DNA from: a virus
Lineage: Duplodnaviria > Heunggongvirae > Uroviricota > Caudoviricetes
Direction: 5' to 3' (one strand)
DNA length: 64,000 nucleotides
IMG/VR virus record: IMGVR_UViG_3300012348_000120
The translations under genes and the position numbers were made by a program. Position 1 is the stretch's first letter. The number at the start of each line of letters is the position of its first letter. The notes under the pieces were generated by a model. It saw only the letters and a list, made by a program, of their open reading frames with translations. It did no database searches and was not told the origin of the DNA. Positions 163 through 58,451 of the stretch are shown here, in pieces.

Positions 163-238
163 TGGTAGTCCCCCTCGGACTTGAACCGAGATATCCGTTC
201 TTATGAGGAACGCTCATTCACCAATTATGATAAAGGAC
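163..238 (-). tRNA. tRNA with CAU anticodon (Met or lysidine-Ile), CCA encoded
   Basis: reverse complement folds as a cloverleaf with acceptor stem GTCCTTT/AGGGGAC-type pairing, anticodon stem CGTTC/GAACG, loop CTCATAA, T-loop GGTTCAAGTCC, 3' CCA. Confidence 0.7.
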
Positions 239-354
239 CGTAATTCTGATCGGTTTGTCGCAGACACCGAAAAACTGCTTTCAGCAACCTAGACGCAGAG
301 CATCATCCCTGTAGGACCATTGTCCCGCAACCGCCATCGTGTTACTGTCTAAAA

Positions 355-437
355 TGGTGTCCCCTGTCGGACTCGAACCGACACTCCTAAGAAGGAGATT
401 TTAAGTCTCCCGCGCCTACCAATTACGCCAAGGGGAC
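355..437 (-). tRNA. tRNA-Leu (UAA anticodon), class II with long variable arm, CCA encoded
   Basis: reverse complement: 7-bp acceptor GTCCCCT/AGGGGAC, anticodon stem GGAGA/TCTCC, loop CTTAAAA, T-loop GGTTCGAGTCC, 83 nt. Confidence 0.65.
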
Positions 438-557
438 GTTTATTTCGTTTCCGACACCAGCCCCCATACCCGCCGTGTCAGTGATTACTTCCATATCCCA
501 AAGAGAACAAGAAAGGAGAAAAGTTCTCAACGGTTTATTAAGTATCTTTCCTAAGAT

Positions 558-634
558 TGGCGATTCCGACAGGACTCGAACCTGTAACCCACAGCTTAGA
601 AGGCTGTTGCTCTATCCAGTTGAGCTACGGAACC
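558..634 (-). tRNA. tRNA-Arg (UCU anticodon), CCA encoded
   Basis: reverse complement: acceptor GGTTCCG/CGGAATC (one G-U pair), anticodon stem ACAGC/GCTGT, loop CTTCTAA, T-loop GGTTCGAGTCC. Confidence 0.7.
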
Positions 635-3262: not shown

Positions 3263-4513
3263 TCAAGCGGCGGCAACCGCTTGAGTCCGAGCACGTTTCA
3301 TGCCTTCTTTGATCTTTTCAACTTTCTTTTCACCATTCGGGAAAACATCGTTGAACTTCACACTCTTGAACGCTTCCCACTTAGTCAGCAGAACATCCAG
3401 TTGATCAACAGGATTGTTTTCACTACCCAGACGACCACGCTCATCGCACATACCAACCCGATGCAGAACATTCACAGTCTCAGGATCATTCAGCGAACCC
3501 ATTTCATCAAACATTTTGACGAAAGTTTTAGCAGTCAGTTCATCCAGCTTGTGCATATTCATGTGAAACCGAGTAGCTTTCATAGCACGGTCACGCATCT
3601 TAGCAGGAACAGTCAGCCGATCAGCAAAGGCTTCAACAACGGGAACACCTTTCACGTCATGACCGAAGTGCTTCGGAAAGTCTTCTTTACGAGTCAGACC
3701 TTTACCAAAGTCATGAACCAGTGCAGCAAACCGAGTTTCCAGATCAAACCCAAACTTGGCAGCTTGAGTCAGAACCAGCATGGTATGCTCAAAGGCATTA
3801 CCTTCGGGATGCCAACGACGACTTTCCATTGCAGAACACAGGGCATACACTTCAGGAAACAGAACATGCAGAGCATCACATTCCAGCAGCGTATCAAAGA
3901 ACAGACGAGGATGGGGTTCCATCAGAGCACGGCTCAGTTCTTTCCACACACGTTCAGCAGTCAGTTCGTTCAGAACACCCTTCTTGGCCATCATGTGAAC
4001 CAGTTCACGAGTTTCCTTGGCAACAGTCCATTCCGCACCAAAACGAGCGCGAAACCGAGCCAGCCGCAGAACACGAACAGGGTCTTCAACAAAAGCATCA
4101 GAAGTATGACGCAGCACTTTCGCTTGCAGATCGTCTTGACCACCAAAGGGATCAAACAGAGCAAAACGACCTTCGTCACCTTCAACAAAGAACTCAGTGT
4201 CTTCCATCCGTTGCAGAGACATACTGTTGATGGTCAGGTCACGACGAGACAGGTCTTCTTCCAGCGTCACATCAGTGCCGAACTCAGAAGTGAAACCCAG
4301 ATACCCAGTGCCAGTCTTTTTTTCACGACGAGCCAGAGCAAATTCTTCACCAGTTTCGGGGTGCAGAAACACAGGAAAATCAGCGCCAACTTTTTCAAAG
4401 CCAGCAGCCAGCATTTCTTCGACCGTGGAACCAACCACCACGAAATCTTTATCTTTCGGCTCCATGCCCATCAGCATATCGCGAACAGCACCGCCGACCA
4501 GAAACGTTTGCAT
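3263..4513 (-). CDS. cca: CCA-adding tRNA nucleotidyltransferase with HD domain
   Basis: N-terminal PolB-type NTase (GGAVRD...DxD) plus HD-domain residues along 417 aa; start trimmed to MQTFLVGG after RBS aaggaa. Confidence 0.85.
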   Translation of the reverse strand: MQTFLVGGAVRDMLMGMEPKDKDFVVVGSTVEEMLAAGFEKVGADFPVFLHPETGEEFALARREKKTGTGYLGFTSEFGTDVTLEEDLSRRDLTINSMSLQRMEDTEFFVEGDEGRFALFDPFGGQDDLQAKVLRHTSDAFVEDPVRVLRLARFRARFGAEWTVAKETRELVHMMAKKGVLNELTAERVWKELSRALMEPHPRLFFDTLLECDALHVLFPEVYALCSAMESRRWHPEGNAFEHTMLVLTQAAKFGFDLETRFAALVHDFGKGLTRKEDFPKHFGHDVKGVPVVEAFADRLTVPAKMRDRAMKATRFHMNMHKLDELTAKTFVKMFDEMGSLNDPETVNVLHRVGMCDERGRLGSENNPVDQLDVLLTKWEAFKSVKFNDVFPNGEKKVEKIKEGMKRARTQAVAAA

Positions 4514-4532
4514 TGGTGATTCCTTTCTCATT

Positions 4533-31301: not shown

Positions 31302-32696
31302 TTACTGTTTGGTAGGAGTTCCGATAGTTGGATCAACACTCAGTTGTTTTGCAGAGTTCAGCATCATAAGTTGCATGAACTGGTCAACCGTGCCAAGTGC
31401 ATTTCCAGAAGTCCCATCACCACCACCAGCAATCACAGTAGAAGGAACGTTGATCTTAGAGGCAGCATCCGCCCAAACACGCTGTGCTTCAACCCAAGCA
31501 TCAAGTTTCTGTTGTAGAGCACCGTCAGCTTCAAGAATGGCTTGCTTTGCGTAGGCTTCTGCATCAGCAGCAACAGTCACAGATTGTGCGTCAACCTTTG
31601 CACGTTCCAGATTGATTTCAGAAGTTTCTTGTGCAATTCGGGCTTCTTCGCGAACACGTTCAGCTTCGATCAGAGCAAGTTTTTTCGTGGTTTCAGCGTT
31701 TGTGGTCTTTTCAATCTGTTCCACTTTTGCTTCTGCTTGACGCTTGGCAATGTCAGTTTCACCTTGTTGGATTGCAAGCAACCGCTGTTCTTCTTGTTCA
31801 AGACGCTGTTCACGAGCAACTACGCGACGAGATGCAGCTTTCTTACGTTCACCAATCTGACGCTCGTATTCATCATCGGGGTCAATGTTTTCAAGAATTG
31901 CAGAAGATACAACAACACCGATTTCCGCGAAGTCATGTGGGGTTCGGATGTCATTGCCGCTTGCGTCTGTCACTTTTTCCATCATAACACGACGAACTTC
32001 AGTGTCACCAACTTCCGAAGTGTCGGCAGCAACATCGCTACTTGATGGAGCAGCACGGCTAGGAATTACGCCACCAGCTTGGTTGAATGAAACTTGACGA
32101 ACCTGAGCACGACCCTTTTCAACAGTATCTTTGAACTCGCTCTTGAACTGGTCACGCTTACCACCAGAGTAGTATTCTTCCATTGTGAACATGTTAGATA
32201 CTGAGTCAAGTGATGCAGTAACGGCAGGTTTCAGAGTAGTGCTAATTAGACGTTCAGGACTACGGAAGGTTCGTGCCATCGTCAAGAATTGTTCTTGATC
32301 TTGTGGGATCGCAAAACGAGTGGTCTGAGTAACATCACCTGTCCAGTTGTCTGCTAGGCGAACACGATATGGACCCGTGACAGAACTGCCATCCGCTTCG
32401 ATATCAATCGTGTTTGCGACTGTGATGAAGTGAGGCCATGCTGTGGAAGTCCCCCAACCAACAAAGAACCAACCTGTTTCACAGACTGCGGTTTCGGTTC
32501 CGAAAATGCTTCGCGTATGCTGGCAGTATCCAGCGTCATTGTAACTTACCGCGCCAAGACCGATGATCGCGACACCAAATACACCAATTGCCGATGCGAC
32601 AATTGTTTTTACTTTTCGTAGTTCGGGAATGAGAGGAACCGCCTTGATTGCAATTGCAGCAATGATAAAGACGATGCCTAGAATGAGTCCAGTCAT
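31302..32696 (-). CDS. SPFH/band-7 (prohibitin/HflK-like) membrane protein with long coiled-coil C-terminal region
   Basis: N-terminal TM helix, SPFH-like core, then a long Ala/Glu/Gln-rich coiled coil. Confidence 0.7.
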   Translation of the reverse strand: MTGLILGIVFIIAAIAIKAVPLIPELRKVKTIVASAIGVFGVAIIGLGAVSYNDAGYCQHTRSIFGTETAVCETGWFFVGWGTSTAWPHFITVANTIDIEADGSSVTGPYRVRLADNWTGDVTQTTRFAIPQDQEQFLTMARTFRSPERLISTTLKPAVTASLDSVSNMFTMEEYYSGGKRDQFKSEFKDTVEKGRAQVRQVSFNQAGGVIPSRAAPSSSDVAADTSEVGDTEVRRVMMEKVTDASGNDIRTPHDFAEIGVVVSSAILENIDPDDEYERQIGERKKAASRRVVAREQRLEQEEQRLLAIQQGETDIAKRQAEAKVEQIEKTTNAETTKKLALIEAERVREEARIAQETSEINLERAKVDAQSVTVAADAEAYAKQAILEADGALQQKLDAWVEAQRVWADAASKINVPSTVIAGGGDGTSGNALGTVDQFMQLMMLNSAKQLSVDPTIGTPTKQ

Positions 32697-32956: not shown

Positions 32957-33144
32957 AGGATATTAAGTGAAAAGCAAGATTTTCTGAGTTTGCATACTTT
33001 CTATAAGTATAGATGTATTCCATCCTTCCGCCCATAATAGTAACTTTAGTGCATATTCTCAAAAACATCCACTTTTTAGTAAAGATGCACCAACTAAATG
33101 GATTGATGCACCTTACTTCTTTGCAGTCTATTATACGGTCATCA

Positions 33145-33483
33145 TTATGCAAAGTTTACAGAGACTCCACATCCGCAGCCAGATTGTGCATTTGGATTGA
33201 AAAGTTCAATCTTACTTCCAGTAATATCGCTGACATAATCAACAGTTGTTCCGATGAGATACATTAGACTGTGACTGTCAACATACAGAGTAAATGTATC
33301 GTATTCTTGAACTTCATCACCAAACATATGGTCTTTGACTTCATCAAAGATTTCCCAGTGGTATTGAAACCCTGCACATCCGCCGCCTATAATTCCAAAC
33401 TTCACCAGTTTGCCAGATGCGATATTAGTAAAGTGATTGATTGCTTTGTCGGTTAGTGTTACAACACTCATTTTTTTCTCCAT
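33145..33483 (-). CDS. HesB/IscA-family iron-sulfur cluster insertion protein
   Basis: GGGCAGFQY and C-terminal GCGCGVS Cys motifs. Confidence 0.75.
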   Translation of the reverse strand: MEKKMSVVTLTDKAINHFTNIASGKLVKFGIIGGGCAGFQYHWEIFDEVKDHMFGDEVQEYDTFTLYVDSHSLMYLIGTTVDYVSDITGSKIELFNPNAQSGCGCGVSVNFA

Positions 33484-33965
33484 TTCGTAATTGATAGACC
33501 ACTATCTGTGAGTTCGTTATTGTGAATATAAAAGTTACTTTCAACTTTTTCTTTGGGTAAGAATACATCACAGTCATACGAACTCGTAATATTACTTATC
33601 CACAATTCATCTATAATGCCAATACAGCTTTCAACAAGAGTTGCGCCGCCGATGATCCATGTGATATACTCTGAATATCTGGGTTCAATGATTTCTTTTA
33701 TTATCTTAGATGGATCGCCACTATAAACTCCATGTGGGGCATTCTTCCACTCATTTGAATTCATGGTAGAAGATATTACAAAGTTTAGACGATTAGATAG
33801 TGGCTTATAAGGAAGACTTTCCCAAGTTTTTCGCCCCATAACAACTGAATGTCCATTTGTGCAATCTTTGAACCATTTCAGATCAGCAGAGTTGCGAGGC
33901 CAAGGCAAGTCTCCGTTCTTGCCTATGCCCCAATTTTCATCCATCGCAAATATTGCTCTTATCAT
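33468..33965 (-). CDS. frd: dihydrofolate reductase
   Basis: MIRAIFAMDENWGIGKNGDLPW...VMGRKTWESLP...IGGATL. Confidence 0.85.
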   Translation of the reverse strand: MIRAIFAMDENWGIGKNGDLPWPRNSADLKWFKDCTNGHSVVMGRKTWESLPYKPLSNRLNFVISSTMNSNEWKNAPHGVYSGDPSKIIKEIIEPRYSEYITWIIGGATLVESCIGIIDELWISNITSSYDCDVFLPKEKVESNFYIHNNELTDSGLSITKWRKK

Positions 33966-33976
33966 TGTATTCCTAC

Positions 33977-36643
33977 TTAAAACCTTTTTGTAAGTGTGAA
34001 ACCAATCTGTGGTGCAGTTTCACCGTCAATGCCCATATAGTTTTCGCGAACTTCTGCAAACATAGACACATTTGTAGTAGGTGTTACATCTACGTTATAA
34101 AACAGACCAAGATTTACTTCTCGGCTATTGTTCGCAAGAGATTCCGACGAAGTAGCGGAAGACACAATTCCCTCTGCACTTACGGATGATGCGTATTCCA
34201 TACTTACGTCACCAGATTGAATTGCTACGGGCAATGCAGCAACAATACCAAAATTTCCATTTCTGGTATTGAATTTTGCTCCAACACTCGCAGTGTTGCT
34301 GATCATTGTGCCAGCACTTTTCATCATAGAATTTTCTCCAACGTTTAGATCAGTAGCACCAACACCGATACTTCCGAACAAAGAACCAGACGAAGTTTGG
34401 ACTTCATGCTTCAGATTTACATAGGTAGTGGTTGCGCCCGTTACATTCATAATTGGACTGGTTGCCACATTTCCAAGGAATGATCCATCTTCTTTCATAA
34501 CACCAAATGTTACAAAGTCGTTGTTATATGAAACCCCATAGTTTGTGCCATCGTCATTAGCTGATACTGCAAAGTTTCCAACATTGATATTGAGTCCCTT
34601 TGTATAGCCAAGATAATTGTCCGCATTTGAATTGTATGATGCGGCAAGAACTGGACTCACCATACGAGTATCAGTCGCAATATTTAGTTTGTTGCCATCC
34701 ATATAAAAGTTTCGGTCATATTCATCTACCACCATCATACTTGACAGTGAAGCCATATTCATACCAGAAACCGATAGCTGTCCATCAATAGATGTAGTTG
34801 CACCATCAACCCGCCCAGTAGTTGGAATACCAATCGCACCCTGTGGACTTGTTGCATTGTCAAGGTCCATAAGTCCTTGTCCATGAATGTTTACATCATA
34901 ACCAGAAAATGATTTGTCAGCAGTATTCATTAGCAACTTTACAACATTCTCGCCAGTCATATATGGCCACATTTGATGAACAAGTGCAACGCCACCAGAA
35001 ATAGCAGGAGCAGCCATTGAAGTTCCACTCAATGCACGATAGTCGCCGTTATTGTTGGTAGAAGTCACCCAAGTCCCTGGTGCCATTAGGTAGTAATCAC
35101 TAATACGGTTTGTATTGTTACAATCGTTTGTGACTGCATTGTAATCAAAGCACATTGTTCCAGCACGGTTGGAGTAGGATGCAATGTTATTGGTGCCAAG
35201 ATCAAATGAACCAGCGATGATTACACGACCATCCAGCGCAAGGTTTCCACTTTCGTCTGTGATAGTTGCATAATGTGCAGGGAAAGCAGGAAATGCCAAG
35301 CCTTGGTTTCCAGCAGCAACAACCAGAACGGTGTCATTTCCACTCATTGCAGTAATAACTGGTGCCGTGAAATTGTCGCTGTTTAGGAGTTGGTTATATC
35401 CAAGAGACTGATATGGAGCATATGTGCTGCGATAGAACCCATCACCAATTGATACTACGCTGTTGCGATAGGTAGAGTCCATATTCATTTCTGCACTTAC
35501 GTTTACAACATCAGCACCGTTTGATACTGCCCAAGCGATGCCATTGCCAACTTGGTCAAGTTCAACGTATCCATTATCATGGCTGATTTTACCAACCAGA
35601 ATATCAGCATCGGGTGCAACACCAGTCATACCCACTCCATCAAGTGCGGCAGCAGCAATACCAGTAACATGTGTGCCATGTGCTACTGAGTTTTTGTCCT
35701 GAATCGTTTCATAGCCATTCTTGCACATCACAGTGAAACATTTGGTTCCGACAATACGACCATCAAACTCTTGATGATCCAAATCAATACCAGTGTCCAG
35801 AATTGCGATAGTTGAGCCAGCACCAGTATATCCGCGACTCCAAGCAACGTTTGCGCCAGTAGCAGGAAGCCAGTTGGCATATGGTCCAAGCCCACTTGGA
35901 TTTAGAATTGTATTAGTTGTGTAATATGGATTCGTAACTTTTACCGCATCAATATACGTCTGTGTCCCTGCAAGGCTTACGTCCGTTCTTGTCGCATATT
36001 CTTCTGCGGTCAAGAATTCAGATTGGCTCGCGTGTGTATTTTGCACAGAACTTACCAACACTCTACCCGATGTTTGCGTCTCAGAGATTGACGAAGAAGT
36101 TGAAATTACGTTTGATGCTGTATTTGTTTTTGTTGTTCCATCACTGTAATACTCAGTGGTAATTTTGGTTTCAACAACTTGAATCGTAGTTGTGGTTTGA
36201 TAATACTTTACCGTAACCTCATATGTATCGGTTGTAGTGTCAGTGTTTACAACTTCGGTTGTTTTAGTTGTATTTACGAGAACTGGATCAGAAACCGTTG
36301 TATTTGTATTTTGTGTAGAAGTTGATGCAGTGTTGATAACTGTCGGTGTGAGAGGATTTGAAACACCCAACAGAATAGCAAACTTTGCAACATCTTCCTT
36401 ATACATTACAACTTTCGCTTCCAACGATTCGTAACTTGCAGTGCCATCTAACCGCTTGTATGCATCAAGATAGGCAGAATAGGTTTTGATATAACCCAAG
36501 TATTGAGTCATATATCTTTGAGCAAGAGTTGTCTGTGTTGTTTTGTTTTTGATGCTTGCGATTGAATCGTAAACTGCACCAGCATACACTGGTGAGACGA
36601 CTGCGAACATAGAAATCAAAAAAGCGAACAGAAAGTTTTTCAT
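33977..36643 (-). CDS. secreted subtilisin-like serine protease (S8) with Thr-rich linker and autotransporter-like C-terminal beta-domain
   Basis: signal peptide; catalytic triad motifs DTGID, HGTHVTG, GTSMAAPAISG; about 330-aa C-terminal region of alternating residues ending in ...FTLTKRF. Confidence 0.75.
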   Translation of the reverse strand: MKNFLFAFLISMFAVVSPVYAGAVYDSIASIKNKTTQTTLAQRYMTQYLGYIKTYSAYLDAYKRLDGTASYESLEAKVVMYKEDVAKFAILLGVSNPLTPTVINTASTSTQNTNTTVSDPVLVNTTKTTEVVNTDTTTDTYEVTVKYYQTTTTIQVVETKITTEYYSDGTTKTNTASNVISTSSSISETQTSGRVLVSSVQNTHASQSEFLTAEEYATRTDVSLAGTQTYIDAVKVTNPYYTTNTILNPSGLGPYANWLPATGANVAWSRGYTGAGSTIAILDTGIDLDHQEFDGRIVGTKCFTVMCKNGYETIQDKNSVAHGTHVTGIAAAALDGVGMTGVAPDADILVGKISHDNGYVELDQVGNGIAWAVSNGADVVNVSAEMNMDSTYRNSVVSIGDGFYRSTYAPYQSLGYNQLLNSDNFTAPVITAMSGNDTVLVVAAGNQGLAFPAFPAHYATITDESGNLALDGRVIIAGSFDLGTNNIASYSNRAGTMCFDYNAVTNDCNNTNRISDYYLMAPGTWVTSTNNNGDYRALSGTSMAAPAISGGVALVHQMWPYMTGENVVKLLMNTADKSFSGYDVNIHGQGLMDLDNATSPQGAIGIPTTGRVDGATTSIDGQLSVSGMNMASLSSMMVVDEYDRNFYMDGNKLNIATDTRMVSPVLAASYNSNADNYLGYTKGLNINVGNFAVSANDDGTNYGVSYNNDFVTFGVMKEDGSFLGNVATSPIMNVTGATTTYVNLKHEVQTSSGSLFGSIGVGATDLNVGENSMMKSAGTMISNTASVGAKFNTRNGNFGIVAALPVAIQSGDVSMEYASSVSAEGIVSSATSSESLANNSREVNLGLFYNVDVTPTTNVSMFAEVRENYMGIDGETAPQIGFTLTKRF

Positions 36644-36678
36644 TGCGAGTCTCCAATTGGTAAAATACTTCGCACCAA

Positions 36679-37230
36679 TTATTTGATGCGAAGTTCTTCG
36701 ATGTTGACAGGAGTGTAGTTAGTCTGTTCCACACAGACACACTTGTATGGACCTTCTGGCGAAAGGTTTTGGTGAATGTGACCATGAACGTTCAATAGTT
36801 GGTTTGGTGGATGCTCCGAAAAACTCTTATCGGGCGCACCACGAAATAGAGAACTTTCGTGCAATGGAACATGGCTCAACATAAGTCCAAACTCTGGAAA
36901 CATTCTCCACATTTGAACTTTCTGAAAGAAGCCACCACTGGATAGAAACTTGATGTCATCATGGTTTCCAACAATCAGACGCTTACTGCCTGTAAGTCGT
37001 GGCCATAGCTTCTTGAATTCATCGCCATTTCCCATGAACACATCACCAAGGTGATATACTTTGTCGCCTTGTTTGACAACGCTATTCCAGCGGTCTACCA
37101 TACATTCATTCATTTCCTCAACAGTTGAAAACTCTGGACGAATTCTTAGCCCAGTATTACTGTCGGTAAATGAAAGAATATTTTTATGGAAAAAGTGTGT
37201 ATCACTCGTAATCCAAATATCAGACATCAT
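36679..37230 (-). CDS. calcineurin-like metallophosphoesterase (second copy)
   Basis: ITSDTHFFH, LGDVF, GNHD, GHIH motifs. Confidence 0.75.
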   Translation of the reverse strand: MMSDIWITSDTHFFHKNILSFTDSNTGLRIRPEFSTVEEMNECMVDRWNSVVKQGDKVYHLGDVFMGNGDEFKKLWPRLTGSKRLIVGNHDDIKFLSSGGFFQKVQMWRMFPEFGLMLSHVPLHESSLFRGAPDKSFSEHPPNQLLNVHGHIHQNLSPEGPYKCVCVEQTNYTPVNIEELRIK

Positions 37231-37465
37231 ATTCTCCGTATATTAGCACATAATGTGCCTTGCTTATATCATCAAGATAGAATACCACATCGCACACTTC
37301 TGCGTCAAGGTCCATATCAAAGACATGATTAGAAAATTCATACTTGTTGCTATTATGACATAGAAAGTTGATTTTTTCATAATCTTGACATATTTGAGCC
37401 AACCAAGTTTCTTTTGTCCATCCGCCTGAAATCTCCATCGTTATTTTCAATGTGTCAGATTTCAT
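37220..37465 (-). CDS. hypothetical acidic protein
   Basis: 81-aa ORF, coupled chain. Confidence 0.45.
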   Translation of the reverse strand: MKSDTLKITMEISGGWTKETWLAQICQDYEKINFLCHNSNKYEFSNHVFDMDLDAEVCDVVFYLDDISKAHYVLIYGEYDV

Positions 37466-37707
37466 GATTGTTGCCCGTATAGCAATGCATACATTGCCGC
37501 ATCATCAAATGTCATAACATAGCAGATTTGCCAGCGTTCAATATAATCCATTGTATCTAACATCAACTCAGTTCTATCAAGTTTGTGAGTTTCAAGATAG
37601 TTTAGCCATGGCATCTTTGATGCCATTCCCTCAACCAAATCGGAGTATTTATCGCCAGCCGCCAAGGCCCACTCAACGTAAACTGCGCCTGAATCAGTGT
37701 CGATCAT
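37462..37707 (-). CDS. hypothetical protein
   Basis: 81-aa ORF, ATGA coupling. Confidence 0.45.
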   Translation of the reverse strand: MIDTDSGAVYVEWALAAGDKYSDLVEGMASKMPWLNYLETHKLDRTELMLDTMDYIERWQICYVMTFDDAAMYALLYGQQS

Positions 37708-37943
37708 TTGAACCTCACGATAAATTCTGCTGCGTCATCTTCAATCATATACGAAAAGAACTCTAAACGCAATCCCATATTTTCATAATCGTTGTGAATG
37801 TCGTATTCAATCACACATTCGGGTTTTGACGTAACCCATTTTCCAGCGTCAGTTTGGTAGAAATCATTTAGAACAAGTTTGGCGGTCCTGTTTACTGCTA
37901 TATCCATACCAATAAGCTGTTCATAAACTGAAACTCTTACCAT
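37704..37943 (-). CDS. hypothetical protein
   Basis: 79-aa ORF. Confidence 0.45.
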   Translation of the reverse strand: MVRVSVYEQLIGMDIAVNRTAKLVLNDFYQTDAGKWVTSKPECVIEYDIHNDYENMGLRLEFFSYMIEDDAAEFIVRFK

Positions 37944-38278
37944 CTCTGAACCGCTGGATACACAAATTGTGTGTCTCCTTTTCGCAAGGTAGAGTGAAGA
38001 ACTGCATGGTCATATTCGTCAATCGCATAGATCAATGCCGCACGAAATACTCCTTCGCCAAGGGATTCTTTGGCAAAGGTTTGAGCATCGGTGGGAGAAG
38101 TAAATTCAATATCAGAGCGAACACTGCCACCAGTTCGAAAGAAGTTCACAACGAAGCGTGTATTCTCGCCGTTGCGAATATCTTCTTCATACTTGTCAAG
38201 CGGCTTCAATTCACCTTTCACCCGTTCAGATTGAATCTTCTGAACAGGTGCAGATTTCTTTACGACAAAGGGTTTCAT
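37937..38278 (-). CDS. hypothetical protein
   Basis: 113-aa ORF. Confidence 0.5.
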   Translation of the reverse strand: MKPFVVKKSAPVQKIQSERVKGELKPLDKYEEDIRNGENTRFVVNFFRTGGSVRSDIEFTSPTDAQTFAKESLGEGVFRAALIYAIDEYDHAVLHSTLRKGDTQFVYPAVQRW

Positions 38279-56480: not shown

Positions 56481-57917
56481 TTATTTGCGAATGTAATCTA
56501 ACCATCCGTTAGGTTTTCTTGGTGTTTTGATAATCGTAGGCTCTGGTGTTGCCTCCGTTTTATTTATCACAGTATATGACTTTTCACTGGTAGTTAGGTC
56601 ATTATGCGTAATTTCTTCATCAATAACAGTTTGATTATCACTTATATCCTCTTGATTGTCAAGAGGTTTTTCAGTCTTTTCTTCGTTAGTTTGACGTGAA
56701 AAGATTGCTTCAAAGATTTCCTCTTGGCCTCTGTCATCATGACGATGCTTCCAAGAGAAGTTTGCTGCAATCAACAACAAAACTGCCAGTGGATCAAACA
56801 CAAAAATGAATACAATGATTAGCCAACGGACTGCAACGTCAATTGTGCTTTTCTCTGTATTCCCATATACTAATTCTGCAATGTATTTTATCGGCCCAAC
56901 TTCTGCTTCTAATTTACGAATTTCTGTTTCCAGCATAAACTTTTCTTCAACCATTTTATTCAGTTCATCAGTCTCAGTTTCAATCTGAGTTTGAACCTTT
57001 TGAACTTCAGCCGTATTGTCAGCAGTAGAAACAGTTGTAAGTTGTTGACGTAAGTTGTCAATGGTTGTTTGTGATGCTGCAACCTCTTGTTCTGCCAATG
57101 AACGAATACGTGCAATCTCTGCACGTGCTGCATCAATTTTTGACTGGTCTGCGTTTTGCTGTGCTTTTGCTATTGAATCAAGTAAAGCGTTTTTCTCACT
57201 GATTTTTTGTTGTTTGAAACGATCAACTGCCGCAGTTGTTTGTGACCCATAGTTTCCATCAGCTTCAACGCCGACCATTGCTTGTAATTGAGCAATACTA
57301 TTAGATTCAATATAGCTTTGTATCTGTGCCAACTCAGCGTCAATTTGCTCAACACTACGTTGATAGGTCTGAACTTCTGGACTTGCGCCACTCTGTTCTC
57401 TTTCGATTATAGCATTTTGCTCATCAATCGCTGGTTGAATACGTGCATAAGCCTGATCTTTTCTTGCCTGTTCAGCATCAATCTGTGCTTGTATACTTGC
57501 AGTGTTGTCACTTGTCTGTGATTGCAACTCTTTTGATTTTTCTATAAGAGATGCAATCTCTCGTTCTTTATTGCTAATTTCTGAAGCAAACTGTTCAACT
57601 TGCGCACTACCTTGTTCCATTTGTGCAGATTGTTCTAAGTGAGCCTTAGACAAAAAGCCAAAAATGCCCATCGATGTGATGAACATCAAGATGACTGTCG
57701 CCGCAGTCAAATACGACTTCAATAGAAATGGTGCAATATTCCAGTTTCTATAAACCCAAGATGCAGATACTAACTTGCCCACTTCAAGCGATCCCGCCAT
57801 CAATGCAACAGGAATCGCAGCAGAAGAAAATATAGCAATCAACCCTGCGATAGAAAACCAAGCCGCAATGATTGCAATAGCAATAGCGACAATAAATGTA
57901 ATAATTGGAAATAACAT
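56481..57917 (-). CDS. membrane protein with N-terminal TM helices, long Gln/Ala-rich coiled coil, PG_binding_1-like motif and C-terminal TM helix
   Basis: VGVEADGNYGSQTTAAVDRFKQQ matches a peptidoglycan-binding-domain consensus; start trimmed to MLFPIITFIV after gagaggggg. Confidence 0.55.
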   Translation of the reverse strand: MLFPIITFIVAIAIAIIAAWFSIAGLIAIFSSAAIPVALMAGSLEVGKLVSASWVYRNWNIAPFLLKSYLTAATVILMFITSMGIFGFLSKAHLEQSAQMEQGSAQVEQFASEISNKEREIASLIEKSKELQSQTSDNTASIQAQIDAEQARKDQAYARIQPAIDEQNAIIEREQSGASPEVQTYQRSVEQIDAELAQIQSYIESNSIAQLQAMVGVEADGNYGSQTTAAVDRFKQQKISEKNALLDSIAKAQQNADQSKIDAARAEIARIRSLAEQEVAASQTTIDNLRQQLTTVSTADNTAEVQKVQTQIETETDELNKMVEEKFMLETEIRKLEAEVGPIKYIAELVYGNTEKSTIDVAVRWLIIVFIFVFDPLAVLLLIAANFSWKHRHDDRGQEEIFEAIFSRQTNEEKTEKPLDNQEDISDNQTVIDEEITHNDLTTSEKSYTVINKTEATPEPTIIKTPRKPNGWLDYIRK

Positions 57918-57971
57918 TACCAACCCCCTCTCAAAATAACTCTCACCTGTATTTATCATTTTTGAGGGACT

Positions 57972-58451
57972 TTACTGGATTTGAACATGGAAGGATACGT
58001 AGTCTCCATAGCGAAAACGTTCATTTGTATGAAAAGTGAAATACTGCCAACCATCATAGATCACAGTTTCAAATCCATGTCGGTGATGTGTTTGGACCGT
58101 AACCCACTCTACATAGCATTCAACATGGTTGGTAGTTTCAGTGCGAACATGACTATTCTTACGGCCTTGGTCGGCCCCGACAATGGCACCAAGAACTGTC
58201 ATTGCATCCTTGCCGCTTCCACTGCCGAATTGGTTTCCGATAATTGCTCCAATCACAGCGCCAGCTACTTGGTTGTCTTGGCGGTATTGTTGTGTGACCT
58301 GAACGTTTTGACAAACTTGTTGTGGAACACTCTCTGTGATGTAAGAACGAACTGGGTTAGTAGATACAACCTCGCCCTGAACAACAATAGTGTCTGCAAG
58401 TGCAGAACTTCCAACAAGAGCGAATACCGCCGCCATAAGTTTAGTTTTCAT
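57972..58451 (-). CDS. secreted glycine-zipper (SlyB/Pcp-like) envelope protein
   Basis: signal peptide MKTKLMAAVFALVGSSALA; glycine-zipper segment GAVIGAIIGNQFGSGSG...LGAIVGA. Confidence 0.6.
   Translation of the reverse strand: MKTKLMAAVFALVGSSALADTIVVQGEVVSTNPVRSYITESVPQQVCQNVQVTQQYRQDNQVAGAVIGAIIGNQFGSGSGKDAMTVLGAIVGADQGRKNSHVRTETTNHVECYVEWVTVQTHHRHGFETVIYDGWQYFTFHTNERFRYGDYVSFHVQIQ

What the first reader, a model, noticed from the sequence alone, without database searches (positions are those of the whole stretch)
33977..36643. Phage-encoded subtilase (S8) with an autotransporter-like C-terminal domain
An 888-aa ORF carries a Sec signal peptide and a Thr-rich, likely O-glycosylatable or extended linker. 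It has a complete S8 catalytic triad (DTG, HGTH, GTSMAAP) and an alternating-pattern C-terminal region of about 330 aa ending in an aromatic residue, as in type Va autotransporter beta-barrels (SphB1/NalP/EprS class). A surface-displayed protease made during infection is very unusual for a virulent phage. It could clip host outer-membrane receptors (superinfection exclusion or release from debris) or process a phage or host substrate. It sits in the frd-iscA neighbourhood among early genes.
Basis: partly seen in the sequence, partly recalled or inferred. Interest (0 to 1): 0.8.

Follow-up and report, generated by a model that had tools for sequence, protein, structure and literature searches.

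The report
Jumbo-phage subtilase with outer-membrane barrel
A ~350-kb uncultured marine phage encodes an intact, strongly conserved subtilisin-type protease fused to a C-terminal outer-membrane beta-barrel that is not a classical autotransporter domain; the same gene occurs in many uncultured jumbo phages but has never been studied.

Summary
ORF 33977-36643 (-) encodes 888 aa with a Sec signal peptide, a 30%-Thr region, a complete S8 catalytic set (D283/H322/N446/S542) and a C-terminal domain ending in an invariant Phe.

The "autotransporter" label is only partly right:
- PF03797 is not matched in 67 family members.
- hhalign against Ag43 and YfaL beta-domains gives <1% probability.
- No long pore helix or beta-helix stalk is predicted.
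- I count about 14 strands, not 12.
- The only detectable sequence link is to OprB-type porins, through a bacterial relative.

The Thr-rich region is predicted as long polar beta-hairpins, not a disordered linker.

The gene is not an oddity of one phage. Orthologs sit syntenically in related ~350-kb phages (dN/dS ~0.07). Full-length homologs at 40-50% identity occupy a conserved metabolic gene block in other jumbo-phage contigs. No GenBank phage or plasmid has the full architecture, and one bacterium (Litorivicinus) does.

Most likely it is an outer-membrane-anchored protease made during infection. Whether it faces outward or into the periplasm is unresolved. Interest is moderate to high: a new variant of a known kind.

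The parts
33977..36643 (-). Complete gene: 888-aa exported subtilase with a C-terminal outer-membrane barrel (stop codon 33977-33979)
   Evidence: dN/dS is 0.06-0.08 against phage orthologs in L002 and L003.
36651..36654 (-). Shine-Dalgarno GGAG, 7 nt upstream of the ATG
36581..36643 (-). Sec type I signal peptide (aa 1-21, probable cleavage VYA|G)
   Evidence: Hydrophobic core with highest KD 2.36 at aa 5-19 and no Cys. All 44 homologs have the same kind of N-terminus. pLDDT is below 50. This is a heuristic call, not a dedicated predictor.
36359..36577 (-). N-terminal helical hairpin (aa 23-95): a lineage-specific, fast-evolving module
   Evidence: Helices 34-61 and 69-92 in the model. Only 19% mean identity to distant homologs. 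No PDB or Pfam match. Absent from the short class.
36029..36358 (-). Thr-rich region (aa 96-205), predicted as four long polar beta-strands (two hairpins)
   Evidence: 30% Thr. Strands 102-117, 121-133, 138-166 and 171-200 at pLDDT 65-84. Both strand faces are polar. 21% identity to distant homologs.
35849..36028 (-). Helical pre-S8 segment (aa 206-265), conserved with the catalytic domain
   Evidence: pLDDT about 88-95. 40% identity to distant homologs, with invariant Y216, D221, V222 and A233.
34844..35848 (-). Peptidase S8 (subtilisin) catalytic domain, aa 266-600. Catalytic residues: D283 (35795-35797), H322 (35678-35680), N446 (35306-35308), S542 (35018-35020). Two invariant, closely spaced Cys pairs: 302/307 and 498/508.
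   Evidence: Pfam PF00082 E=2.9e-36. PHROG 3677 'protease'. Closest solved relatives are intracellular and classical subtilisins. Invariant residues. pLDDT above 90.
34595..34843 (-). Conserved linker or candidate plug (aa 601-683), including the motif MVVD640-EYD-R644-NFY. Short strands and short helices only.
   Evidence: 49% identity to distant homologs, which is higher than the barrel itself. D640 and R644 are invariant. DSSP shows no long helix. The motif is kept in the short class.
33980..34594 (-). C-terminal outer-membrane beta-barrel (aa 684-888), about 14 amphipathic strands, with a beta-signal-like last strand ending in F888

Best explanation
The gene encodes a catalytically competent subtilisin-family (S8A-like) serine protease that a ~350-kb marine jumbo phage makes inside its Gram-negative host.

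Proposed pathway:
1. The Sec system exports the protein into the periplasm.
2. The host BAM machinery inserts the last ~205 residues into the outer membrane as a beta-barrel of about 14 strands.
3. The protease is thereby tethered to the outer membrane of the infected cell.

I think the most likely arrangement is that the conserved 80-residue segment before the barrel occupies or crosses the barrel lumen. The S8 domain, with its variable N-terminal add-on, would then be presented on the cell surface in an autotransporter-like way. There it would cut surface proteins of the infected cell. Likely targets are phage receptors or other outer-membrane proteins, pili or flagella. The effect would be to block superinfection or to stop progeny being lost on debris.

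Shown here: the ORF, the signal-peptide-like N-terminus, the S8 domain with all catalytic residues, the barrel fold of the predicted model, the amphipathic strands, the terminal Phe, purifying selection on every domain, and the wide distribution on jumbo-phage contigs.

Inferred: insertion by BAM, the orientation of the protease, expression timing and the substrates.
For: Anatomy:
- Peptidase_S8 at E=2.9e-36 with invariant D283/H322/N446/S542.
- Signal peptides in all 44 homologs.
- Full-length model at pLDDT 85.7 and C-terminal model at pLDDT 79.5.
- Family-averaged strand amphipathicity.
- G(-7), alternating hydrophobics and terminal F in 44/44 homologs.

Selection and distribution:
- dN/dS is 0.06-0.08 overall and 0.07 in the barrel.
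- The gene is syntenic in a 350-kb relative.
- Homologs at 40-50% identity sit in a conserved GTP-CH-I / PRTase / S8 / TK / SAM-synthetase block in other phage contigs.
- The barrel profile finds 795 cluster representatives, always C-terminal. 47 of 50 sampled carry S8.

For outward display specifically:
- Subtilase autotransporters are an established precedent (PMC9977779).
- The four Cys residues form two closely spaced pairs. Autotransporter passengers are noted for few cysteines and disulphide bonds (PMC3297439). That closely spaced pairs are the arrangement such passengers tolerate is my own knowledge, not from that paper.
- The N-terminal module is the fastest-evolving and most exchangeable part.
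- A barrel of the same fold is fused to a VCBS-repeat protein in an uncultured phage (BFVD A0A6J5L9S5, E=1.1e-9, TM 0.67). VCBS repeats are adhesin-type modules.
Against: - No sequence relationship to the autotransporter beta-domain. PF03797 is not hit at E<=10 in 17 members or at E<=1e-3 in 50 diverse members. hhalign gives <1% against Ag43 and YfaL, while those two detect each other.
- No long alpha-helix that could fill a pore, and no beta-helix or autochaperone between S8 and barrel.
- My strand count from DSSP is 14, not 12.
- The barrel's only sequence link is to OprB-type porins. From my own knowledge, not tested here, N-terminal domains of OprB/OmpM-type proteins (SLH domains) stay in the periplasm. 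Many N-terminal-domain plus C-terminal-barrel proteins (BamA, LptD, FapF, BcsC) also keep the N-terminal part in the periplasm.
- I could not inspect model coordinates, so the position of the S8 domain relative to the barrel is unknown.
- There are no expression, localisation or substrate data.
- The fold evidence rests on predicted models, not solved structures.
Confidence: 0.5

Rival explanations
1. Same protein and same outer-membrane barrel anchor, but the protease domain stays on the periplasmic side. The conserved segment 601-683 plugs the barrel from below, as a FadL-type hatch does, and the S8 domain works in the periplasm of the infected cell. There it could cut envelope proteins such as outer-membrane-to-peptidoglycan tethers, periplasmic defence or stress proteins, or receptor precursors. 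The outcome would be envelope remodelling or help with late outer-membrane disruption.
For: - The barrel is not a PF03797 domain.
- There are about 14 strands and no pore helix.
- There is a sequence link to OprB porins.
- From general knowledge, not tested here, the default topology of N-terminal-domain plus C-terminal-barrel proteins is periplasmic.
- The barrel is almost exclusively tied to S8 rather than serving many passengers (47/50). That is unlike a general translocator.
Against: - Subtilases of Gram-negative bacteria are typically extracellular (general knowledge).
- The N-terminal add-ons are highly variable and swappable, as expected for an exposed surface.
- The same barrel fold carries a VCBS-repeat passenger in another phage protein.
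- The gene lies in a nucleotide-metabolism block, not with lysis genes.
Confidence: 0.3
2. The barrel acts as a secretion device, and the protease cuts itself free as Ssp and the SPATEs do. It is released into seawater or the cell's surroundings. There it digests dissolved or particulate protein, or capsule and S-layer proteins of neighbouring cells. This would supply amino acids to the infected cell during a long jumbo-phage latent period, as an auxiliary metabolic gene, or clear the way for progeny.
For: - Self-cleavage and release are documented for the subtilase autotransporter Ssp (PMC9977779).
- The gene sits among auxiliary metabolic genes: DHFR, TK, PRPP synthetase, SAM synthetase and GTP cyclohydrolase I.
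- The hosts are marine, and the only cellular close homolog is in the marine gammaproteobacterium Litorivicinus.
Against: - No cleavage site can be identified.
- The linker is strongly conserved (49% identity), which suggests a structural role rather than a scissile one.
- A released enzyme would be a diluted public good for a single infected cell in seawater (reasoning).
- This rival depends on outward translocation, which is itself unproven.
Confidence: 0.12
3. The gene is a recently captured bacterial passenger with no role in the phage life cycle.
For: - One close homolog lies on the Litorivicinus lipolyticus chromosome next to rhamnose and glycosyltransferase genes.
- Remote S8+barrel relatives are clearly cellular.
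Against: - The ORF is intact, with dN/dS 0.06-0.08 in every domain between phage orthologs.
- Its position is conserved in a 350-kb relative.
- Divergent phage lineages keep it in a conserved gene block.
- The nearest relatives of the Litorivicinus copy are themselves phage-borne.
Confidence: 0.03

Closest known systems
Subtilase autotransporters of type Va secretion (Serratia Ssp, Neisseria NalP, Bordetella SphB1, Pseudomonas EprS)
   Same: A Sec signal peptide, an S8 subtilase with no classical I9 propeptide, a C-terminal outer-membrane beta-barrel ending in an aromatic residue, and few, closely spaced cysteines. One viral relative (L035) has a lipobox. From my own knowledge, NalP and SphB1 are lipoproteins.
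   Different: - The barrel is not PF03797 and has <1% hhalign probability to Ag43 and YfaL beta-domains.
- NCBIfam EprS matches only the protease part, at 69 bits against a cutoff of 1700.
- There is no long pore helix and no beta-helix or autochaperone stalk. Ssp has a 248-residue beta-helix (PMC9977779). Here only ~85 residues separate S8 and barrel.
- The extra 240 residues lie N-terminal to the S8 domain.
- There are about 14 strands rather than 12.
- It is encoded by phages.
OprB-family carbohydrate-selective porins (PF04966) and bacterial Ank/S8 proteins with an OprB-like barrel (e.g. P0234)
   Same: This is the only detectable sequence affinity of the barrel. The A2 profile against P0234 gives hhalign 96.9%, E=1.3e-10 over 163 columns. 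The same region of P0234 matches OprB at 33.9 bits, above the cutoff of 22.9. P0234 also has an S8 domain upstream of the barrel.
   Different: - The window protein and its 17+50 sampled relatives do not themselves reach OprB significance, apart from 2 remote members.
- The match covers only the C-terminal half of the OprB model.
- OprB porins are larger barrels with no protease.
- P0234 and P0258 are cellular.
Plugged 12-14-stranded outer-membrane barrels (FapF, FadL/TodX, CymA, PorV, OmpG)
   Different: Sequence identity is 5-13% with no sequence-level signal. The scores do not separate these barrels from porins or autotransporters. None of them carries a protease domain.
Phage- and prophage-encoded outer-membrane proteins (lambda Lom, prophage porins, Ag43 in cryptic prophage CP4-44)
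   Same: They are precedents for phage genomes encoding BAM-dependent barrels. flu (Ag43) lies inside CP4-44 in E. coli K-12. BFVD lists many uncultured-phage porin and OMP-like barrels and one 'autotransporter beta-domain' protein.
   Different: - The examples I know of are morons of temperate phages and are not proteases.
- The BFVD autotransporter-domain protein matches this barrel only at E=0.14, TM 0.31.
- Here the gene sits in the metabolic region of jumbo phages. No integrase was seen in the window, and the lifestyle was not established.
S8 proteases of cultured phages (Bacillus phages SP-15, Goe3, Tsamsa etc.; PHROG 3677)
   Same: An S8 catalytic domain at 24-30% identity.
   Different: They cover only ~35-38% of the query, which is the catalytic domain. 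None of 50,697 phage records has the barrel. Their hosts are mostly Gram-positive, where an outer-membrane barrel has no meaning.

Membership tests
Peptidase family S8 (subtilases) | Match to the Peptidase_S8 profile above the curated threshold | tested here: met
   PF00082 at 125.7 bits against a cutoff of 21.8, E=2.9e-36, residues 274-590 covering the full profile. The profile against PDB hits subtilisins at up to E=7e-41.
Peptidase family S8 (subtilases) | Asp-His-Ser triad in that order, plus the oxyanion-hole Asn | tested here: met
   D283 (ILDTG), H322 (HGTH), N446 (AAGN) and S542 (GTSMAAP). All are invariant in 44 homologs.
Peptidase family S8 (subtilases) | N-terminal I9-type propeptide (typical of secreted subtilisins but not universal) | tested here: not met
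   No Inhibitor_I9 hit. The N-terminal profile has no PDB match. The short class begins S8 about 30 residues after the start.
Type Va (classical) autotransporters | N-terminal Sec signal peptide | tested here: met
   Heuristic features, conserved in 44/44 homologs.
Type Va (classical) autotransporters | C-terminal beta-domain homologous to Pfam Autotransporter PF03797 | tested here: not met
   No hit at E<=1 for the full protein, at E<=10 for 17 barrel sequences, or at E<=1e-3 for 50 diverse members. hhalign probability is 0.3% to the Ag43 beta-domain and 0.1% to the YfaL beta-domain. The positive control, Ag43 against YfaL, gives E=3e-4.
Type Va (classical) autotransporters | 12-stranded barrel | tested here: inconclusive
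Type Va (classical) autotransporters | Alpha-helical linker spanning the barrel pore | tested here: not met
   Only three short helices of 4-6 residues (650-653, 664-669, 678-681) precede the barrel in both models. These are predicted models only.
Type Va (classical) autotransporters | Beta-helical stalk or autochaperone between the functional domain and the barrel (present in Ssp and SPATEs, absent in EstA) | tested here: not met
   Only ~85 residues separate S8 and barrel, with no beta-helix in DSSP. Ssp has a 248-residue beta-helix (PMC9977779).
Type Va (classical) autotransporters | Passenger translocated to the cell surface | not testable with these tools
   This needs localisation experiments or inspection of a structure placed in a membrane.
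Outer-membrane beta-barrel proteins (BAM substrates, Pfam clan MBB) | Closed antiparallel barrel fold | tested here: met
Outer-membrane beta-barrel proteins (BAM substrates, Pfam clan MBB) | Strands with alternating lipid-facing hydrophobic residues | tested here: met
   11 of 15 C-terminal strand segments have a face difference of 2.0-3.65 KD units, averaged over 44 homologs. The N-terminal Thr-rich strands score 0.03-0.6.
Outer-membrane beta-barrel proteins (BAM substrates, Pfam clan MBB) | C-terminal beta-signal ending in an aromatic residue | tested here: met
   F at position 0 in 44/44, G at -7 in 44/44, and hydrophobic residues at -6/-4/-2.
OprB porin family (PF04966) | Match to the OprB profile | tested here: inconclusive
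   The window protein does not match. The remote relative P0234 matches above threshold (33.9 bits against 22.9). P0234 aligns to the window family's barrel at 96.9% hhalign probability. The link is transitive and covers only part of the OprB model.

The most novel reading that the evidence does not exclude
A whole clade of marine jumbo phages carries a previously undescribed secretion-and-anchoring module. It is a porin-derived barrel of about 14 strands with a conserved plug-like linker, and it evolved autotransporter-like surface display of a subtilase independently of type V secretion. The phages use it to proteolytically re-sculpt the outer surface of the infected cell. This would be a protease-based route to receptor destruction or superinfection exclusion. 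I know of no phage example, and none turned up in the literature searches I ran.
Probability: 0.25. Interest if true: 0.85.

Novelty: new variant of a known kind. Interest (0 to 1): 0.62.

Why it matters
If the protease is displayed or anchored as proposed, three things follow.

1. Large marine phages would be investing in a BAM-dependent outer-membrane enzyme during infection. That implies host envelope biogenesis stays functional, and that remodelling the infected cell's surface by proteolysis is under strong selection. The evidence is dN/dS of about 0.07 and conservation across lineages that share only 40% identity.

2. It would add a protease-based mechanism to the known repertoire of phage superinfection exclusion and receptor masking.

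3. It would add a new barrel type, unrelated in sequence to PF03797, to the ways Gram-negative cells attach enzymes to their outer membrane. The barrel family has 795 representatives at 50% clustering and no Pfam model, so it is also an annotation gap.

The hypothesis is directly testable by heterologous expression.

Tried and rejected
- Megablast of 33000-38000 against GenBank phages found nothing. The phage has no close sequenced relative in that collection.
- The GTDB genome scan was swamped by generic S8 motifs (HGTHVAG and similar). It returned only catalytic-domain hits, so it says nothing about the cellular distribution of the full architecture. That cap was wasted.
- The search for homologous proteins with the barrel alignment saturated on its word index and returned only 9 fragments.
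- The afdb50 fold library was unavailable.
- Sequence profiles of the barrel (A2) and of the N-terminal region (A4) against PDB found nothing significant. The antifreeze-protein hit at E=0.45 is Thr-rich low complexity and was rejected.
- The 'barrel-only' ORF P0292 looked like a natural split gene. It lies on a Pilon-polished long-read contig where neighbouring genes are also fragmented, so I treat it as a frameshift artefact.
- P0247 (bactofilin repeats, 11 matched stretches, no terminal Phe) was rejected as a repeat-driven false positive of the barrel profile.
- Most 'S8-less' barrel proteins are N-terminally truncated fragments from contig ends.
- A TolC-like reading of the N-terminal helical hairpin plus four strands was considered. 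I rejected it because those strands are polar on both faces.
- Promoter and terminator scans around the gene were no better than shuffled sequence.
- Literature searches found no description of this gene family in phages. One search failed on a term that was too short.
- I could not obtain model coordinates. Strand closure, the position of the linker in the lumen and the S8-barrel orientation therefore could not be checked.
Full report
**1. The observation**

GGAG lies 7 nt upstream of the start. The gene is tightly packed in a long run of minus-strand genes. DHFR starts 11 nt downstream and a phosphoesterase gene ends 35 nt upstream.

The N-terminus (MKNFLFAFLISMFAVVSPVYA|G) has the features of a Sec type I signal peptide and no lipobox. 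All 44 aligned homologs begin in the same way. Residues 96-205 are 30% Thr.

Pfam Peptidase_S8 matches residues 274-590 over the whole profile at E=2.9e-36. D283, H322, the oxyanion Asn446 and S542 are invariant in the family. The protein ends in Phe in 44 of 44 homologs. Gly is invariant at -7 and hydrophobic residues sit at -6, -4 and -2.

There are two corrections. The C-terminal region is about 290 aa, not 330. The Thr-rich segment is predicted as structure, not as a loose linker.

**2. What the genome is**

The window carries the following:
- three tRNAs;
- a CCA-adding enzyme, an RNA ligase and an AAA/Lon-like protein;
- DHFR, an IscA-like protein, two phosphoesterases and a UDP-glucose dehydrogenase-like protein;
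- an SPFH/Band 7 protein whose closest relatives are in Alishewanella and Sinorhizobium myophages.

Everything is co-directional. No structural or lysis genes were recognised among the ORFs scanned, and only about 20 ORFs were scanned. Nothing in GenBank phages matches at the nucleotide level.

The exact protein is found on a 36.9-kb Logan contig. Members of its 90% cluster lie on contigs of 350 and 356 kb. A 350-kb JGI contig carrying an 81%-identical ortholog has the same gene order: phosphoesterase, S8, DHFR, IscA, SPFH, RNA ligase. The window is therefore part of an uncultured jumbo phage of about 350 kb.

**3. Anatomy of the protein**

An AlphaFold2 model built on 44 homologs is confident, with mean pLDDT 85.7. 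It shows these segments:
- a disordered signal peptide;
- a helical hairpin (34-92);
- four very long beta-strands (102-200);
- a helical segment (206-265) packed with the S8 domain;
- the S8 domain (to about residue 600, pLDDT above 90);
- an 80-residue segment of short strands and three short helices (601-683);
- an almost continuous series of beta-strands from 684 to 886.

A separate model of residues 596-888 (pLDDT 79.5, pTM 0.73) gives the same secondary structure.

- FadL 9.7, NalP 9.7, AIDA-I 9.5, EstA 9.2.

Foldseek against the PDB also returns only outer-membrane barrels, and only weakly (best E=2.5e-3, TM at most 0.39).

Hydropathy averaged over the 44 homologs shows that 11 of the 15 C-terminal strand segments have one hydrophobic and one polar face, with a difference of 2.0-3.65 KD units. 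The long N-terminal Thr-rich strands are polar on both faces. Together with the invariant terminal Phe, this supports a membrane-embedded barrel at 684-888.

From the DSSP strings I count 14 strands with very short connections on both sides. I could not inspect coordinates, so this count is provisional.

**4. Is it an autotransporter?**

By sequence it is not a member of the classical family.
- PF03797 is not matched by the full protein at E<=1.
- It is not matched by any of 17 barrel sequences at E<=10.
- It is not matched by any of 50 diverse barrel-bearing proteins at E<=1e-3.
- NCBIfam's EprS model aligns only to the protease part and falls far below its cutoff.
- hhalign of the barrel alignment against the beta-domains of two genuine E. 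coli autotransporters gives probabilities of 0.3% (Ag43) and 0.1% (YfaL). Those two beta-domains recognise each other even by pairwise BLASTP, at E=3e-4.

The architecture also differs. Subtilase autotransporters such as Ssp have the subtilase at the mature N-terminus, followed by a ~250-residue beta-helix with an autochaperone region and then the translocator (PMC9977779). Here only ~85 residues separate S8 and barrel. No beta-helix and no long helix is predicted. The extra 240 residues lie in front of the S8 domain.

The one sequence affinity I could find points elsewhere. A bacterial protein with ankyrin repeats, S8 and a barrel (P0234, in a clearly cellular context) aligns to the barrel profile at 96.9% hhalign probability, E=1.3e-10. 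The same region of that protein matches the OprB porin family above Pfam's threshold.

In the viral structure library the barrel matches two proteins well:
- another uncultured-phage S8 protein (E=1.4e-12, TM 0.66);
- an uncultured-phage VCBS-repeat protein (E=1.1e-9, TM 0.67).

A phage protein annotated 'autotransporter beta-domain' matches only at E=0.14, TM 0.31.

The label 'works like an autotransporter' remains possible. The label 'is a type Va autotransporter' fails the tests that could be run.

**5. Distribution**

The full-length search found 623 relatives. Seven are at 68-99% identity and represent the window's own lineage. A large set is at 40-50% identity over the whole length.

Every close-family context I sampled, other than Litorivicinus, is phage-like:
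- P0004;
- P0056 on a 127-kb IMG/VR contig;
- P0096 on a 322-kb contig deposited as a 'bacterium' MAG;
- P0292 on a 323-kb contig;
- P0079.

The last four share a block of GTP cyclohydrolase I, a phosphoribosyltransferase, S8, thymidine kinase and SAM synthetase. This argues for long vertical inheritance in a phage clade.

IMG/VR holds dozens of full-length copies. It also holds a shorter class that lacks the N-terminal module. One example of 671 aa, on a 335-kb viral contig, is simply signal peptide, S8, linker and barrel. Another has a lipobox and PVEE repeats in front.

A barrel-only profile finds 795 representatives at 50% clustering. The domain is always at the extreme C-terminus, and 47 of 50 sampled proteins carry S8. 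The barrel is thus a dedicated partner of the subtilase rather than a general carrier.

One close homolog is cellular. It is on the Litorivicinus lipolyticus chromosome beside rhamnose-synthesis and glycosyltransferase genes. Its nearest relatives, at 46% identity, are phage copies.

No GenBank phage and no PLSDB plasmid has a match covering 80% of the protein. I found no paper that describes the family.

**6. Selection**

Against the two phage orthologs for which I had DNA, dN/dS is 0.06-0.08 overall. By domain it is 0.04-0.06 in S8, 0.05-0.11 in the linker, 0.07 in the barrel and 0.09-0.11 in the N-terminal module. dS is close to saturation, so these values are approximate.

Identity to distant homologs falls in this order: S8 (57%), linker (49%), barrel (40%), Thr-rich region (21%) and helical hairpin (19%). 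All parts are maintained. The N-terminal module is the most plastic.

**7. Mechanism**

What is shown is an exported, catalytically intact subtilase fused to a domain with the fold, surface chemistry and C-terminal motif of a BAM-inserted barrel. It is maintained by selection in jumbo phages.

I infer that it is made during infection, crosses the inner membrane by Sec and is anchored in the host outer membrane. The orientation of the protease is the open step.

Evidence for outward display:
- the precedent of subtilase autotransporters;
- two closely spaced Cys pairs. Autotransporter passengers are noted for few cysteines (PMC3297439), and from my own knowledge closely spaced pairs are the arrangement they tolerate;
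- the variable, exchangeable N-terminal modules;
- the VCBS-repeat protein carrying the same barrel fold.

Evidence for a periplasmic protease:
- the porin-type affinity of the barrel;
- the lack of a pore helix;
- the 14-strand count and the resemblance to plugged barrels;
- the many known proteins that combine a periplasmic N-terminal part with a C-terminal barrel.

My weights are about 0.5 for surface display, 0.3 for periplasmic, 0.12 for release after self-cleavage and very little for a functionless passenger.

The biological role is speculation consistent with the anatomy and with the gene's place among metabolic rather than lysis genes. The candidate roles are cutting receptors or other surface proteins to prevent superinfection or loss of progeny, envelope remodelling, and nutrient scavenging.

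**8. Verdict**

Its central structural guess, a barrel after an S8 domain, is borne out. Assignment to the SphB1/NalP/EprS class is not.

The finding is better described as a phage-borne member of an undescribed family of subtilases with a porin-like C-terminal barrel. It is common in uncultured marine jumbo phages and absent from cultured ones. I rate it a new variant of a known kind, of moderate to high interest, with a clear experimental path.

Noticed in passing
window 163-634 (-): Three phage tRNA genes in a cluster: Met(cat), Leu(taa) and Arg(tct). A CCA-adding tRNA nucleotidyltransferase lies nearby at 3263-4531.
   Followed up: no
window 57972-58451 (-): A 159-aa ORF with a clear signal-peptide-like N-terminus (MKTKLMAAVFALVGSSALA|D). 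It is a second candidate exported protein of this phage, found by a crude scan.
   Followed up: no
window 31302-32696 (-): An SPFH/Band 7 (stomatin/prohibitin-like) membrane protein. It is 58% identical to proteins of Alishewanella phages Slicko01 and Slickus01 and 49% identical to one in Sinorhizobium phage phiN3. It lies a few genes from the protease and is conserved in the 350-kb relative.
   Followed up: partly
window 56481-57959 (-): A 492-aa protein with an N-terminal transmembrane-like segment and no PHROG match. It is partly similar to hypothetical proteins of jumbo phages (Xanthomonas Xoo-sp13 and XacN1, Stenotrophomonas CM1, Salicola SCTP-2) and of Pelagibacter phage Mosig.
   Followed up: no
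L165/L166 (NCBI GCA_028125345.1 and GCA_028380945.1): Two assemblies deposited as 'bacterium' MAGs. Their contigs of 322 kb and 78 kb around the S8 homolog look like jumbo-phage sequence: small co-directional ORFs, GTP cyclohydrolase I, a PRTase, radical SAM, SufE and SAM synthetase. They are probably mis-binned phage genomes.
   Followed up: partly
L163, L165, L170, L174 (loci around P0056, P0096, P0292, P0079): A conserved gene block recurs in divergent marine jumbo-phage contigs: GTP cyclohydrolase I, phosphoribosyltransferase, S8-barrel protease, thymidine kinase, SAM synthetase and a 5'-3' exonuclease.
   Followed up: partly
L035 4870-7869 (IMG/VR contig of 306,714 bp): A 999-aa variant of the family. 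It has a lipoprotein-type signal (LALTAC), a Gly run and PVEE/EEPV acidic repeats in front of the S8 and barrel. From my own knowledge, this parallels the lipidated autotransporters NalP and SphB1.
   Followed up: no
L170 6001-6876 (ENA contig erskine_4__contig_10903_pilon, 323 kb): A barrel-only 291-aa ORF (P0292). It sits on a long-read contig where many genes are fragmented, so it is most likely a frameshift artefact rather than a natural split of protease and barrel.
   Followed up: yes
L175 2540-5659 (E. coli K-12 NC_000913.3 2071539-2074658): The Ag43 autotransporter gene flu is annotated inside the cryptic prophage CP4-44. This is a precedent for prophage-borne autotransporters.
   Followed up: no
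L001 8001-10769 (Litorivicinus lipolyticus chromosome): The only clearly cellular close homolog sits between dTDP-rhamnose synthesis genes (rmlD-, rmlC- and rmlA-like) and a glycosyltransferase/acyltransferase cluster. This is a surface-polysaccharide region and a typical site of horizontal gene exchange.
   Followed up: partly
L002 12669-13421: The 350-kb relative has an extra 250-aa gene of unknown function between the S8 gene and DHFR. The window lacks this gene.
   Followed up: no
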